Positions 1,999 to 8,640 of a stretch of 9,862 nucleotides of DNA are shown in pieces (within the stretch, counting starts at the first letter, position 1; the number at the start of each line of letters is the position of its first letter). Source of the DNA: a virus (taxonomy: Duplodnaviria > Heunggongvirae > Uroviricota > Caudoviricetes); the IMG/VR virus record IMGVR_UViG_2778261457_000002, positions 1 to 9,862 of that record; one strand, written 5' to 3'. The notes below the pieces were generated by a model. It was given only the letters and a program-made list of their open reading frames with translations. It was not told the DNA's origin and ran no database searches. A program made the position numbers and the translations under genes.

Positions 1999-2328
1999 GT
2001 GCTTGACACACAGGAATTAGCTCCAGTTGCTATTGCGCTCCTGCTTTCAGTAATTGGTGGGATAGGCACGTTCCTGATGGATGTCCGAGACGGTCGCCAG
2101 TCTGGCAATTTGTTGGGATTGGTTACGGAGATCTTTGTTGCAGTGACAGCTGGCGCGGTGGCGTACCTATTGGGGCAACACGAGGGCTGGGAGTTATCAA
2201 TTACGTACTTAATGGTAACGATAGCCAGCAATAACGGTCATGAGGTGATTTCAGGGATGAAACGAGTGAATATCGATAGCATTCTGAATGTTCTTACAAG
2301 TTTGGTGAAAAAGGGAGGCGGGAAATGA
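1999..2328 (+). CDS. lydA: Holin (LydA-like), 109 aa
   Basis: GTG start with AGGAGGG 5 nt upstream. Product has two hydrophobic helices (PVAIALLLSVIGGIGTFLM and LLGLVTEIFVAVTAGAVAYLL) and a charged C-terminal tail (KKGGGK), the holin architecture. Stop overlaps the next start as ATGA. Size and position match P1 LydA as recalled. Confidence 0.7.
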   Translation: MLDTQELAPVAIALLLSVIGGIGTFLMDVRDGRQSGNLLGLVTEIFVAVTAGAVAYLLGQHEGWELSITYLMVTIASNNGHEVISGMKRVNIDSILNVLTSLVKKGGGK

Positions 2329-2768
2329 TTGGCTGGGGTGTATGCGTTCTTGCGTTAGCCTTAGCCGATCGCTATTTGCTAAAACGCAAGGACATCACGC
2401 ATTTAGAACTTGGTGATGTGGAAATTAAACCGGGTTTCATCCGGGTGCCGTTCAAATACCGGTCTAAATTCCCGTTTTTGCGCGGCGCAACGGTCAGATA
2501 TTGGATCCGCGATGTTCAGAAGCCGACGACAGTGATTGAAGGCGAACAACGTTGTTTGACGTCGGCTGAACAGGGCGAAAACAGTGAATGGTTGTACATA
2601 CCCACTGAATATATGGGTAAAGGAGAGCGACTGTGGCATTTCAACGTCATGGTTACGCATGGCGACTCGTTCATTAACCCGTTGTATCGGATTTTCCCTG
2701 TTACTCAGCAAATCCGCAGAAGTTACGTAATAAATCTCGCACAGGATGTGTCAGATGACGAAAAATAA
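2325..2768 (+). CDS. lydB: Antiholin / lysis regulator (LydB-like), 147 aa
   Basis: ATG at 2325 overlaps the holin stop (ATGA), with AAGGGAGG 6 nt upstream. Product has an N-terminal hydrophobic segment followed by a soluble domain. Size and position match P1 LydB as recalled. Confidence 0.6.
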   Translation: MIGWGVCVLALALADRYLLKRKDITHLELGDVEIKPGFIRVPFKYRSKFPFLRGATVRYWIRDVQKPTTVIEGEQRCLTSAEQGENSEWLYIPTEYMGKGERLWHFNVMVTHGDSFINPLYRIFPVTQQIRRSYVINLAQDVSDDEK

Positions 2769-5640: not shown

Positions 5641-5652
5641 GGCGTAACACGG

Positions 5653-8640
5653 ATGAGCTTAAGCGATCAGGTGGTAATGGCCACCAGCATAGAAACGCTG
5701 ATCGAGCTGCTAAAGAACCTGCCCGATTTCGGGCGGGTTTCGTATGTGGTGACAGCGAAGGGTGACGAGGTAAAAACAGCGTTTGATATCGTCGATGCCT
5801 CGGCTCTTTTGGTATCCAATACTCTGGACGGGAAAATTAACCCTGACTATCCCCAGGAACTTCAGCCGCGCGACCGGACCCGCGCATCCAGTCTTCTTCA
5901 GGTCAACAAGATATCCAAGGATTTGCGTCCTGCCCAGCTTACCGATTCCGGTTTATCCAGCCATGGCGCGCCGATAATTGGTGAGGACAATGCCGTTGAG
6001 TCAGGTAATGGACGGACCATGGGGATCATCAAAGCCTATCAGGACGGCAATGCGGATCGGTATCGTGAGTACCTGATTGATCATGCGACCGAATTCGGCA
6101 TACCTCCTGAAAAGGTTGAATCAATGACGGCTCCGGTACTGGTGCGCCGCCGGTTAACTAAGGTTGACCGCGTTCAGTTTGCCAAGGACTCAAATATTTC
6201 TGATCTTCAGGAAATGGCAGCCAGTGAAAAGGCTTTTGTTGATGCCGACAGCATAACACCGGCGATGATGGCGCTTTTTAACCCGTCAGAAAGCGGAGAT
6301 CTGCTTAGCCGCAGTAATGACGCGTTTATTCGCGGATTTATGACGCAAGTTGGTGCCACACAGGCGGCTGGCCTTGTAACTGAAGATGGGCGACCAACAC
6401 GGCAACTTGTAGACCGTATACAAAACGCGATCTTTGCCAAGGCATATAAGGATGCGCGCCTGGTAAGGATGGTTGCAGAAGAACCTGATCCGGATATGCG
6501 TAATGTTCTGACGGCGCTTAATGCGGCAGCCAATGATTTTGTCCAGATGCAGGCTTTATCAGGAGAAGCGCACAAGCAGGCTGTGACAACTATTGTTGAT
6601 GGCATTGAGACAGCGGATAGCCTCGATAAAAAGGCGCTGGCGGCATTGAAAGATGCGGTAGACCTGGTAAGGCAATCGAAGGAGTCAGGCCAGCATATTA
6701 CCGATGTTATTGCTCAGGGGGATATGTTCAGCGAAACGGCCCCGGAAGTGAAAGCACTCGCGTTGTTCATCGTCGCGAATAACCGTAGCGCGAAGCGTAT
6801 GGCCACCGCCTTTAAGTTGATGGCTCAACGTATCAATGATGAGTTACAGCACCAGGGCCAGGCGCTGGGGGATATGTTTGGCGGCGGCGATGTGTCGTTA
6901 CAGGATATCCTTCGCCAGGTGTCTCAGGAACTGGAAAACGAAGGCATGCAAGGGATATCCGGCGGTCTTTTCGAGTCCGTTTCCGGCGGTAGTTACAACG
7001 GTGTTGCTCCATATACCAGTTTGCTATTACATCGGGCATCCGGCATCAAAGACATTATTCATCTGATCAGGCTGCTTTCCCGTACAGATCCCCATGATGA
7101 ACAGCTTGTACAAGTGCTTGCGCATTTTGTTCGAATGCCTGTTGCCGACGTGAAAAAATGGTGCCGATTATTCGGTATCAGCAATTCGTTACTTCGCGGC
7201 TTGTTAAATCACGCATCCTCCCTTGGGCGCGATGGCTTTGACGAGATAGCGCAGGCGATAAAAAACGGAGATATGCCACCAGCTATTGACTGGTTTTCCA
7301 TTCGCCCAACCAGGGTGAAAGCATTCCTTAGCGCGGCGCATTCGGCATCATCATTGGCAGAAATGGTTCAGAGGTTGTCGCTCATATTCACAGACCATAC
7401 CGCGTTGGGTGATCTGACTCTGGACGAGATGAAAGATGCCTCCATTCAGTGGGCCGATCAACAAAATGAGGTTAACTCAGACTTCTTGACAGCATTCAGG
7501 AAGGCCGTTAGTAAAGCGGATGATGCCCGTGGAATTCTGAAGGCATTTAAGGCATTGCAAAGTCGTGTTAATAAACATGTCGGTGATATCGATGGGGTAA
7601 CGGCGGAAGGCCGGGATATCCTTAAAGAGCACGGTATAACGCCAGAGTTTATTGATGAGATCAGGACTGATATGCAGCGTGAGGTCGTATCGTCCCTGCA
7701 AATCGTAGCCAGAGCGTTGGCGGATGCTAATCCGAAGAGTGCGGCCATTGTTAACCGGGTTATTGGTGATATTGAAGCATCGGAGGGCATGGGGGTACTG
7801 AAACTCTTCCTTTCGCGAGCGTTTAATCCTAACGGCAATATTCTCCCTGGCATTATTGGTGAGGCTAAAAAGTATGTCAGTGAAGAAGAACTTGAGCAGC
7901 TTGACCAACTACTTAAGCGATTCTCATATAACCCGCAGACACGCTGGCAAATGAATCAGCGAAGTATGGGTTCGGTCCACGAGAAAGTGTTATCTGCCAT
8001 GAACAGTGCGATCGCAAACTCATACGTATCTGAAGAAAAAGCTCTTGAGTGGGCCGACTCTTTTATCACAGAAGAAGTGGAAGAAGTCCGCGCTGGACAG
8101 AATGGTGGGATAGACCTGCGCAAGGAACTTGCTGATATTTATCGCCTGACCGGCGGGAAAATATCGACCTTATCAAAGGTAGTTCACCACCAGGGAAGGG
8201 CATATGCAAATCTTAATGGTGTTGTTGCTGTCAATTTGAACGATGAAAATGCAAGTGCACTGTGGCACGAGCTGGGTCATCATCTTGAGTACAGTAACCC
8301 TGGTTTGTTAGAGAAAGCCCGGTCATTCCTGAAGGCCAATGTTGAAGGGGATAAGCCATCTTTCGTCAATATCGGTGGGCGTGGCAAGCCTGAATGGTGC
8401 TTCAGATCTCGATTGAGTAATATTTATATGGCGAAGGTATACCCGCCAGCCTCAGTAAGTAACACCGGGAAAATTCGGCAGAAATCTCCGACTATTTCCA
8501 AAACGTCAGCAACGGAAGTATTCTCTATGGCTCTTCAGTTGTATCATGACAAAGAGGCCGCTGCCGCATCACTGATGAATGGTGACGGATTGCTGGAACT
8601 GTTATTAGGTGTGGCAAAGGAGCTAAATAATGCAGATTAA
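5653..8640 (+). CDS. ddrB: DdrB-like large protein (about 109 kDa) with a C-terminal HExxH motif
   Basis: 995-aa ORF starting 12 nt after the ddrA stop. Contains WHELGHH at residues 871-877 (nt 8263-8283), preceded by a predicted beta-strand (GVVAVNLND). Position and size match P1 DdrB as recalled. Confidence 0.65.
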   Translation: MSLSDQVVMATSIETLIELLKNLPDFGRVSYVVTAKGDEVKTAFDIVDASALLVSNTLDGKINPDYPQELQPRDRTRASSLLQVNKISKDLRPAQLTDSGLSSHGAPIIGEDNAVESGNGRTMGIIKAYQDGNADRYREYLIDHATEFGIPPEKVESMTAPVLVRRRLTKVDRVQFAKDSNISDLQEMAASEKAFVDADSITPAMMALFNPSESGDLLSRSNDAFIRGFMTQVGATQAAGLVTEDGRPTRQLVDRIQNAIFAKAYKDARLVRMVAEEPDPDMRNVLTALNAAANDFVQMQALSGEAHKQAVTTIVDGIETADSLDKKALAALKDAVDLVRQSKESGQHITDVIAQGDMFSETAPEVKALALFIVANNRSAKRMATAFKLMAQRINDELQHQGQALGDMFGGGDVSLQDILRQVSQELENEGMQGISGGLFESVSGGSYNGVAPYTSLLLHRASGIKDIIHLIRLLSRTDPHDEQLVQVLAHFVRMPVADVKKWCRLFGISNSLLRGLLNHASSLGRDGFDEIAQAIKNGDMPPAIDWFSIRPTRVKAFLSAAHSASSLAEMVQRLSLIFTDHTALGDLTLDEMKDASIQWADQQNEVNSDFLTAFRKAVSKADDARGILKAFKALQSRVNKHVGDIDGVTAEGRDILKEHGITPEFIDEIRTDMQREVVSSLQIVARALADANPKSAAIVNRVIGDIEASEGMGVLKLFLSRAFNPNGNILPGIIGEAKKYVSEEELEQLDQLLKRFSYNPQTRWQMNQRSMGSVHEKVLSAMNSAIANSYVSEEKALEWADSFITEEVEEVRAGQNGGIDLRKELADIYRLTGGKISTLSKVVHHQGRAYANLNGVVAVNLNDENASALWHELGHHLEYSNPGLLEKARSFLKANVEGDKPSFVNIGGRGKPEWCFRSRLSNIYMAKVYPPASVSNTGKIRQKSPTISKTSATEVFSMALQLYHDKEAAAASLMNGDGLLELLLGVAKELNNAD

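What the first reader, a model, noticed from the sequence alone, without database searches (positions are those of the whole stretch)
1999..8640. Lysis plus antirestriction operon (lydA-lydB-hdf-darA-ddrA-ddrB-like) divergent from the invertase
Seven consecutive plus-strand genes have start/stop overlaps or gaps of 12 nt or less. Their sizes (109, 147, about 200, 639, 121 and 995 aa) and order match what I recall of the P1 darA operon, which packages antirestriction proteins into the capsid to protect injected DNA from type I restriction. At first sight this block looks like a defence island beside a recombinase, but it is better explained as this known counter-defence module. The individual products, especially DdrA and DdrB, are poorly characterised biochemically.
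Basis: partly seen in the sequence, partly recalled or inferred. Interest (0 to 1): 0.5.

Follow-up and report, generated by a model that had tools for sequence, protein, structure and literature searches.

The report
Phage P1 darA lysis/antirestriction operon

Summary
Seven tightly packed plus-strand genes lie at 1999-8938: lydA, lydB, hdf, darA, ddrA, ddrB and hxr. Their products are 109, 147, 203, 639, 121, 995 and 102 aa. The junctions are -4, -23, +1, -4, +12 and -11 nt.

Window 1942-9862 aligns to P1 (NC_005856.1 / AJ000741) without gaps and with 16 mismatches. LydA, DdrA and Hxr are identical to the P1 proteins. LydB and Hdf differ by 2 residues each, DarA and DdrB by 1 each.

DarA and Hdf match the P1 cryo-EM chains 9ukm_I and 9ukm_H. 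DarA scores 1089 bits against NCBIfam anti_RE_DarA (cut-off 350). The late promoter LPdar (1952-1970) and the terminator hairpin (8994-9041) are intact. P7 and the distant Cronobacter phage JK004 keep the same seven genes in the same order. No PADLOC defence model fits.

- lydC (1654-1938) lies between cin and the operon.
- The seventh gene, hxr, and the terminator lie beyond the stated end (8640).
- DarB and Ulx, the other two Dar components, are encoded elsewhere in P1.
- DarA and Hdf also set head size.

A fold search gave moderate support for the published predictions about DdrB (ParB-like N-terminus, zincin C-terminus). Novelty: already known. Interest: low.

The parts
1952..1970 (+). Late promoter LPdar: a 9-nt palindromic -22 box (AAGTTACTT, 1952-1960) and a -10 hexamer (TACCAT, 1965-1970)
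   Evidence: Annotated in NC_005856.1 at locus L001 3008-3026, which is window 1952-1970 (offset). The window is identical to P1 here; the nearest mismatches are at 1945 and 1947. The motif occurs once in the window, against 0.03 expected.
1999..2328 (+). lydA, holin (109 aa, GTG start)
   Evidence: 100% identical to P1 LydA. Pfam PF16083 Phage_holin_3_3 scores 30.1 bits against a cut-off of 28.4. PHROG 1527 holin, E 4e-49.
2325..2768 (+). lydB, LydA antagonist (antiholin), 147 aa; ATGA overlap with lydA
   Evidence: Pfam PF16084 LydB scores 344 bits over its full length. It has 2 residue differences from P1 (A79T, S132R) and is identical to P7 LydB.
2746..3357 (+). hdf, basic head-internal partner of DarA (203 aa, pI 10.2); alternative start at 2755 gives 200 aa
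   Evidence: 2 residue differences from P1 Hdf. Pfam DarA_N, E 1e-21. PHROG 1620 Hdf-like. PDB 9ukm_H 'Hdf', E 4e-122. 29% identity to DarA residues 107-210.
3359..5278 (+). darA, defence against restriction protein A (639 aa): DarA_N domain, coiled coil (about aa 200-290) and DarA_C
   Evidence: 638/639 identical to P1 DarA (G275T). NCBIfam NF052326 anti_RE_DarA scores 1089 bits against a cut-off of 350. Pfam DarA_N and DarA_C both match. PDB 9ukm_I, 1404 bits.
5275..5640 (+). ddrA, small acidic virion protein (121 aa, pI 4.05)
   Evidence: Identical to P1 DdrA. PHROG 1855 DdrA-like, E 4e-57. No Pfam family. Homologues were found only in P1-like elements.
5653..8640 (+). ddrB, 995-aa multidomain virion protein: ParB-like domain at aa 36-167 (nt 5758-6153), a long helical middle, and a C-terminal zincin-type domain with HELGH at aa 872-876 (nt 8266-8280)
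8630..8938 (+). hxr, last gene of the operon (102 aa, pI 4.05); 11-nt overlap with ddrB
   Evidence: Identical to P1 Hxr. PHROG 2292, unknown function. No Pfam hit even at E<=10. Positional homologues are OdaA in P7 and gene_115 in JK004.
8994..9041 (+). Terminator hairpin closing the operon, between hxr and the convergent isaB
   Evidence: AJ000741 annotates a terminator at 8032-8105, which is window 8967-9040. An inverted repeat has arms at 8994-9012 and 9023-9041. The fold has a 13-bp stem (GGCTTGCTT.../...AAGCAAGCC) followed by TTTCCTATT; the 91-nt segment folds at -28.4 kcal/mol.

Best explanation
This is the darA (dar) late operon of a P1-type temperate myovirus or plasmid prophage.

Shown by sequence: a promoter of the P1 late type (LPdar, 1952-1970) precedes seven translationally coupled genes that end at a hairpin terminator (8994-9041).

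Taken from the literature on the near-identical P1 genes:
- LydA is a holin and LydB its antagonist. Together with the unlinked SAR-endolysin Lyz they set the time of lysis.
- Hdf and DarA enter the procapsid early, and 55 DarA-Hdf pairs sit at the penton-hexon junctions on the inner capsid wall, in contact with the packaged DNA.
- The N-terminus of DarA is removed by the prohead protease.
- The DarA-Hdf pair favours the large T=13 head over the small head.
- The pair is required for loading the other Dar proteins: DdrA and DdrB from this operon, and DarB and Ulx from elsewhere in the genome.
- The Dar proteins leave the head with the DNA and protect that DNA, in cis only, against type I restriction. 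DarA, Hdf and DdrA are linked to EcoA protection; DarB and its helpers to EcoB and EcoK.

Inferred: DdrB is a multidomain protein with a ParB-like N-terminal domain and a C-terminal zincin-type peptidase domain that probably cuts the protein itself before or during packaging. How the proteins block restriction biochemically is not settled.
For: Identity to P1:
- Window 1942-9862 matches P1 at 99.8% (16 mismatches, no gaps).
- The genes correspond one for one to the P1 annotation, including LPdar and the terminator.
- The seven proteins carry 0-2 residue differences each.

Family matches:
- Pfam, PHROG and NCBIfam assign LydA, LydB, DarA_N, DarA_C, ddrB-ParB and anti_RE_DarA.
- DarA and Hdf match P1 virion cryo-EM chains 9ukm_I and 9ukm_H.

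Synteny: the seven-gene order is kept in P7 (96-100% aa identity) and in Cronobacter phage JK004 (44-78% aa identity), with the same pattern of overlaps.

Literature:
- PMC12810830 describes the DarA-Hdf structure, the order of incorporation and the EcoA/EcoB/EcoK specificities.
- PMC9024508 reports Hdf, DarA, DdrA and DdrB in the virion proteome.
- PMC12707154 reports action in cis and an unclear mechanism.
- PMC9025707 covers the LydA/LydB/LydC roles and the late dar operon.
- PMC10695390 reports that CRISPRi knock-down of lydB impairs plating while the dar genes are dispensable.
- PMC5512222 predicts the ParB and metallopeptidase domains of DdrB and cites earlier work for its processing to 76 kDa.

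Against: - Nothing in the sequence contradicts the assignment.
- Function is transferred from P1 by near-identity and was not measured for this copy.
- Only 9.9 kb is visible, so it cannot be said whether the rest of the phage is intact. That includes darB, ulx, pro, lpa and lyz, which the operon depends on.
- The key primary paper (Piya et al. 2017) could not be read here, so its results are cited second-hand.
Confidence: 0.96

Rival explanations
1. The block is a bacterial anti-phage defence island sitting next to a recombinase. This is the reading the first reader mentioned and set aside.
For: - A large multidomain protein (995 aa) with a ParB-like domain and a peptidase motif lies beside a serine recombinase, which superficially resembles defence islands.
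- DarA gives weak PADLOC matches to LmuB, JetC and PbeC (E 8.5e-6 to 2e-3).
Against: - All PADLOC matches fall on the DarA coiled coil (aa 158-289) and are weak (E 8.5e-6 to 2e-3, at most 23 bits). No other protein matches any defence model.
- The recombinase is Cin, the invertase of the tail-fibre C-segment.
- The block is 99.8% P1 DNA.
- Its proteins are virion components.
Confidence: 0.01
2. The hdf-darA part is primarily a capsid-assembly (head-size or scaffold and DNA-anchoring) module. On this view antirestriction is an indirect consequence, because other cargo such as DarB cannot be loaded without it.
For: - Deleting darA or hdf shifts virions from about 80% large heads to about 15% and removes all other Dar proteins (PMC12810830, citing Piya 2017).
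- DarA-Hdf appendages are seen only in large capsids and anchor DNA (bioRxiv 10.1101/2025.11.26.689930).
- A review notes that this interdependence complicates the interpretation of dar mutants.
Against: - darA mutants are specifically sensitive to EcoA-type restriction, and protection acts in cis on the packaged DNA.
- The two roles are not exclusive.
- The dar genes are dispensable for plating on non-restricting hosts.
Confidence: 0.3
3. The operon here is a decaying remnant in a cryptic plasmid and is no longer a working module.
For: - An IS1 end lies at 9789-9862.
- The window is a mosaic of P1-like and P7-like segments.
- Many database homologues of DdrA and DdrB are truncated or frameshifted.
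Against: - All seven reading frames are full length, with 0-2 substitutions each and no frameshift.
- The promoter and terminator are intact.
- The IS1 sits at exactly the position it has in infectious P1.
Confidence: 0.04

Closest known systems
Bacteriophage P1 darA operon (GenBank AJ000741; NC_005856.1 genes P1_gp027 to P1_gp021)
   Same: Same seven genes, order, sizes, overlaps, late promoter and terminator. DNA is 99.8% identical over 7921 nt. LydA, DdrA and Hxr are identical. The downstream isaB gene and the IS1 insertion are the same.
   Different: 16 nucleotide substitutions, 12 of them at 1945-3171, giving 6 amino-acid changes. The flanks upstream of position 1942 are not P1-like: lydC is the P7 allele, cin is 94% identical, and the C-segment tail-fibre genes are of another type.
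Phage P7 dar operon (lydA-lydB-odaE-darA-odaC-prt-odaA; NC_050152.1)
   Same: Same architecture. lydC is 93/94 aa identical and LydA and LydB are identical to the window. The region 955-9158 aligns in one piece at 97.7%.
   Different: DarA is 623/639 and DdrB 978/995 identical, so these are less close than the P1 versions. P7 has no isaB/IS1 downstream (nmpC instead). The genes carry other names (odaE for hdf, odaC for ddrA, prt for ddrB, odaA for hxr).
Cronobacter phage JK004 genes 121-115 (MZ188976.1), a distant P1-like phage
   Same: Seven genes of nearly the same lengths in the same order with the same overlap pattern. Protein identities are LydA 78/109, Hdf 158/203, DarA 459/654 and DdrB 598/998.
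   Different: All are annotated as hypothetical. The Hxr counterpart is only 45/102 identical. There is no cin/lydC arrangement directly upstream.
Polyvalent (multidomain, injected) phage proteins as defined by Iyer et al. 2017 (PMC5512222)
   Same: DdrB has the DdrB-type ParB domain and a zincin-type C-terminal domain. Homologues swap their C-terminal halves or add other domains (PF18823, PF18810).
   Different: This is a class defined by computation. No enzymatic activity of DdrB has been reported in the papers read here.
Phage T4 internal protein IPI* (head-packaged, co-injected anti-restriction protein)
   Same: Works like it in outline: the protein is packaged in the head, ejected with the DNA and counters a host nuclease (mentioned).
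   Different: There is no sequence relationship. IPI* inhibits a type IV enzyme by binding it, whereas Dar acts in cis on the packaged DNA against type I systems and needs six proteins.

Membership tests
P1 darA (dar) operon | Gene order lydA-lydB-hdf-darA-ddrA-ddrB-hxr on one strand with coupled junctions | tested here: met
   The ORFs and junctions match the P1 annotation one for one.
   DarA is 638/639 and DdrB 994/995 identical. DarA scores 1089 bits against NF052326, cut-off 350, and matches PDB 9ukm_I.
P1 darA (dar) operon | P1 late promoter (-22 palindrome plus -10) upstream of lydA, and a terminator after hxr | tested here: met
   AAGTTACTT-N4-TACCAT is unique at 1952-1970. The hairpin lies at 8994-9041.
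P1 darA (dar) operon | The products are packaged in the head and protect the DNA from type I restriction in cis | not testable with these tools
   Known for P1 and transferred here by near-identity.
LydA holin / LydB antiholin | Match to Pfam PF16083 and PF16084 above the gathering score | tested here: met
   LydA scores 30.1 bits (cut-off 28.4) and LydB 344.1 bits (cut-off 28).
DarA_N domain family (DarA and Hdf) | Pfam PF18788 match in both Hdf and DarA | tested here: met
   Hdf scores 77.3 bits and DarA 143.4 bits (cut-off 27). A direct Hdf-DarA alignment gives 29% identity over 105 aa.
ParB/Srx superfamily (DdrB N-terminal domain) | PF18763 match, a conserved arginine-containing motif and a ParB-like fold | tested here: met
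Zincin-type metallopeptidase (DdrB C-terminal domain) | HExxH motif with a downstream third ligand, and a zincin fold | tested here: met
Anti-phage defence systems (PADLOC models) | A significant match of any product to a defence-system protein model | tested here: not met
   The only matches are weak ones on the DarA coiled coil (aa 158-289) to LmuB, JetC and PbeC. The other nine proteins have no match.
Xre-type HTH repressors (the GenBank note on Hxr) | A helix-turn-helix domain detectable by profile, and a composition fit for DNA binding | tested here: not met
   There is no Pfam or NCBIfam hit even at E<=10. The protein has pI 4.05, with 24 acidic and 3 basic residues. The AF2 model was too poor to judge (pLDDT 37.5).

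The most novel reading that the evidence does not exclude
Hxr, the seventh gene, is annotated in P1 as a possible Xre-like repressor. It may not be a DNA-binding repressor at all. It may instead be a small, very acidic protein (pI 4.05) that is translationally coupled to ddrB and serves as a so far unrecognised accessory of the Dar or lysis module, for example a chaperone or DNA-mimic-like factor. Its position is kept in P7 and in the distant phage JK004. A second open point is that the predicted ParB-like and zincin activities of DdrB have never been shown biochemically.
Probability: 0.08. Interest if true: 0.3.

Novelty: already known. Interest (0 to 1): 0.08.

Why it matters
It matters little as a discovery. 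The block is the textbook P1 dar operon, sequenced in the 1990s (AJ000741), and the DarA-Hdf part was solved by cryo-EM in 2026.

Its use is practical. It marks the window as part of a P1-type plasmid prophage, here a P1/P7 mosaic with a non-P1 tail-fibre cassette. It also warns annotators that a large ParB-plus-peptidase protein beside a recombinase is a phage counter-defence cargo and not a host defence island.

Three questions remain open for the whole P1 field and are not specific to this window:
- how Dar proteins block type I enzymes;
- what DdrA, DdrB and Hxr do biochemically;
- whether DdrB processes itself.

Tried and rejected
1. Defence-island reading: the PADLOC scan found only coiled-coil noise on DarA, so it was rejected.
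2. Hxr as an Xre-type repressor: there is no HTH profile hit at any threshold. The homologue search found only near-identical P1-type sequences (13 hits), so the AF2 model built on 7 sequences was unusable (pLDDT 37.5). No fold search was run on it.
3. DdrA: the homologue search returned only P1-like relatives, several of them frameshifted. The alignment was too shallow for a useful model, so none was made.
4. DdrB against the PDB by sequence, as a single protein and as a profile: nothing meaningful.
6. C1 operator consensus near lydC: no match within 3 mismatches.
7. Rfam: no RNA family in the window.
8. The generic sigma-70 and terminator scan did not pick up LPdar or the operon terminator, and found no more sites than the shuffles. 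P1 late promoters lack a -35 box, so this is expected.
9. Piya et al. 2017 (PMC6011833) and Lobocka et al. 2004 (PMC523184) are not held in the library. Their results are quoted through later papers.
10. No record in the phage, plasmid or E. coli collections matches the whole window at 99% or better. The exact source replicon is therefore not identified.
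Full report
**Observation.** The ORF list shows an unbroken series of plus-strand genes:

| Gene | Coordinates | Product |
|---|---|---|
| lydA | 1999-2328 | 109 aa, GTG start |
| lydB | 2325-2768 | 147 aa |
| hdf | 2746-3357 | 203 aa |
| darA | 3359-5278 | 639 aa |
| ddrA | 5275-5640 | 121 aa |
| ddrB | 5653-8640 | 995 aa |
| hxr | 8630-8938 | 102 aa |

The junctions are -4, -23, +1, -4, +12 and -11 nt. The seventh gene (hxr) and the terminator lie just outside the stated interval, and the promoter lies just before its start.

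**Identity.**
- A megablast of the whole window against phage records finds P1 first: AJ000741 'Bacteriophage P1 darA operon', NC_005856.1 and AF234172/3, at 99.4% over 955-9862.
- A direct comparison shows that window 1942-9862 aligns to P1 without a gap and with 16 mismatches (99.8%). The cin region 955-1577 is 94.4% identical, and 1578-1941 does not align.
- Translated, LydA, DdrA, Hxr and the downstream IsaB are identical to P1.
- LydB differs by A79T and S132R, Hdf by T27A and S61N, DarA by G275T, and DdrB by Q86K.
- The P1 annotation maps gene for gene onto the window. This includes the late promoter LPdar (window 1952-1970) and the terminator recorded in AJ000741 (window 8967-9040).
- The LPdar motif AAGTTACTT-N4-TACCAT occurs exactly once in the window.
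- The terminator is a 13-bp GC-rich stem at about 8994-9041 followed by a T-rich run.

**Independent family evidence.**
- Pfam assigns LydA to Phage_holin_3_3 and LydB to PF16084 (344 bits). It assigns Hdf to DarA_N, DarA to DarA_N plus DarA_C, and DdrB to the ddrB-ParB domain.
- PHROGs gives holin, lysis-determining protein, Hdf-like, DdrA-like and the DarA family.
- NCBIfam NF052326 'antirestriction phage head protein DarA' scores 1089 bits against a cut-off of 350.
- DarA and Hdf match chains I and H of PDB entry 9ukm, the P1 virion cryo-EM structure.
- Hdf aligns to DarA residues 107-210 at 29% identity, and both carry the peptide KNSAKFQ. This also shows up as a 21-nt direct repeat at 3064 and 3962.
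- PADLOC gives no defence-system assignment. The only hits are weak matches of LmuB, JetC and PbeC models to the DarA coiled coil.

**Synteny.**
- P7 has the same seven genes under other names (lydA, lydB, odaE, darA, odaC, prt, odaA).
- Cronobacter phage JK004 has seven unannotated genes of nearly the same lengths, order and overlaps.
- JK004 protein identities to the window run from 78/109 (LydA) and 459/654 (DarA) to 598/998 (DdrB) and 45/102 (Hxr).

**How it works** (from the literature on the near-identical P1 genes).
- LydA is a holin and LydB its antagonist. They are encoded in the late dar operon, unlinked to the SAR-endolysin Lyz (PMC9025707).
- CRISPRi knock-down of lydB impairs plating, whereas hdf, darA, ddrA, ddrB and hxr are dispensable on a permissive host (PMC10695390).
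- Hdf and DarA are packaged first and are needed for all the others. Without them most heads are small.
- Cryo-EM places 55 DarA-Hdf pairs at the penton-hexon junctions inside the head, touching the DNA. They are absent from emptied heads (PMC12810830). A preprint reports them only in large capsids.
- Hdf, DarA, DdrA and DdrB are all found in the virion proteome (PMC9024508).
- Protection acts only in cis on the packaged DNA. The exact mechanism is still called unclear in a 2025 review (PMC12707154).
- These statements are transferred to the window by near-identity. They were not and cannot be tested here.

**DdrB.** Iyer et al. (PMC5512222) predicted a ParB-like N-terminal domain and a C-terminal metallopeptidase domain that would process the protein to the 76-kDa virion form.
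- A homologue search gave 1815 relatives. Many share only the N-terminal 45% and carry different C-terminal halves or extra domains.
- In an alignment of 36 homologues the motifs QPRDRTR (aa 71-77) and ESGNGR (aa 116-121) are invariant. So are H872, E873, H876, H877, E879 and E914 around the HELGH motif at aa 872-876, which is nt 8266-8280.
- The AlphaFold2 model has mean pLDDT 77.4 and is best in the C-terminal half.
- Foldseek against the PDB gave nothing significant. The best relevant hit was a ParB-N domain at E 0.32.

**Surroundings.**
- Upstream, cin (972-1532, minus strand) is the C-segment invertase, with the cix site at about 958-977.
- Between cin and the operon lies lydC (1654-1938). 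Here it is the P7 allele (93/94 aa) and not the P1 allele (25/94).
- Twelve of the 16 differences from P1 lie at 1945-3171, and LydB is identical to the P7 protein. The window is therefore a P1/P7 mosaic with a junction inside hdf.
- Positions 1-954 carry a short tail-fibre C-terminus and a tail-fibre assembly gene on the minus strand. They are unlike P1's Sv'/U', about 85% identical to HK97 stf/tfa, and 98-99.8% identical to cassettes in P1-like plasmids of Salmonella and E. coli.
- Downstream are isaB (9050-9655, minus strand) and the end of IS1 (9789-9862), at exactly the P1 position.
- No Rfam family is present.

**Verdict.** The system is already known and has been characterised genetically, by proteomics and, for DarA and Hdf, structurally. 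The open biochemical questions concern the mechanism of protection and the roles of DdrA, DdrB and Hxr. They belong to P1 biology in general and are not raised by anything peculiar to this window. Interest is low.

Noticed in passing
window 1578-3171: The window is a P1/P7 mosaic. lydC (1654-1938) is the P7 allele (93/94 aa, against 25/94 to P1 LydC) and LydB is identical to P7. From darA onward the genes are of P1 type. 12 of the 16 differences from P1 lie at 1945-3171, which suggests a recombination junction inside hdf.
   Followed up: partly
window 1-977 (minus strand): The invertible C-segment next to cin carries a short tail-fibre C-terminal part (from the cix site at about 958-977 down to a stop near 490) and a tail-fibre assembly gene (start near 487, running off the left edge). 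They are not P1's Sv'/U'. They are about 85% identical to HK97 stf/tfa and 98-99.8% identical to cassettes in P1-like plasmids of Salmonella and E. coli. This probably gives a different host range.
   Followed up: partly
window 8630-8938: Hxr is annotated in P1 as a 'possible repressor; homolog of Xre'. It has no HTH or any other Pfam or NCBIfam match even at E<=10. It is very acidic (pI 4.05, 24 acidic and 3 basic residues, with a run of aspartates near the C-terminus). The Xre annotation looks unsupported. The AF2 model was unusable (pLDDT 37.5).
   Followed up: partly
window 6207-6605 (minus strand): iddB is the antisense ORF inside ddrB that P1 annotates. It has no family match. Its ATG is ATA in P7. 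Its Ala/Ser/Arg-rich composition is what an antisense frame of a coding region gives. It is probably not a gene.
   Followed up: partly
window 5653-8640 and proteins P0058-P0120: DdrB relatives are modular. The N-terminal 440 aa or so are 55-68% identical across many enterobacterial and Vibrio proteins, while the C-terminal halves differ. Vibrio versions are about 615 aa and carry PF18823, and some proteins add PF18810.
   Followed up: no
window 2746-2757: The hdf start is ambiguous. ATG at 2746 gives 203 aa (used in P1 and in PDB 9ukm_H). ATG at 2755 gives 200 aa and is the start annotated in P7 and JK004 and listed as an alternative in AJ000741.
   Followed up: no
window 9789-9862: The left end of IS1 lies at exactly the same position downstream of isaB as in P1. 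Because IS1 is so common, whole-window searches of plasmids and E. coli genomes return thousands of irrelevant records.
   Followed up: no
window 3830-4225 (DarA aa 158-289): The DarA coiled coil draws weak hits from SMC, Rad50, LmuB, JetC and PbeC models. This is a likely source of false 'defence' or 'SMC-like' calls in automated annotation.
   Followed up: yes
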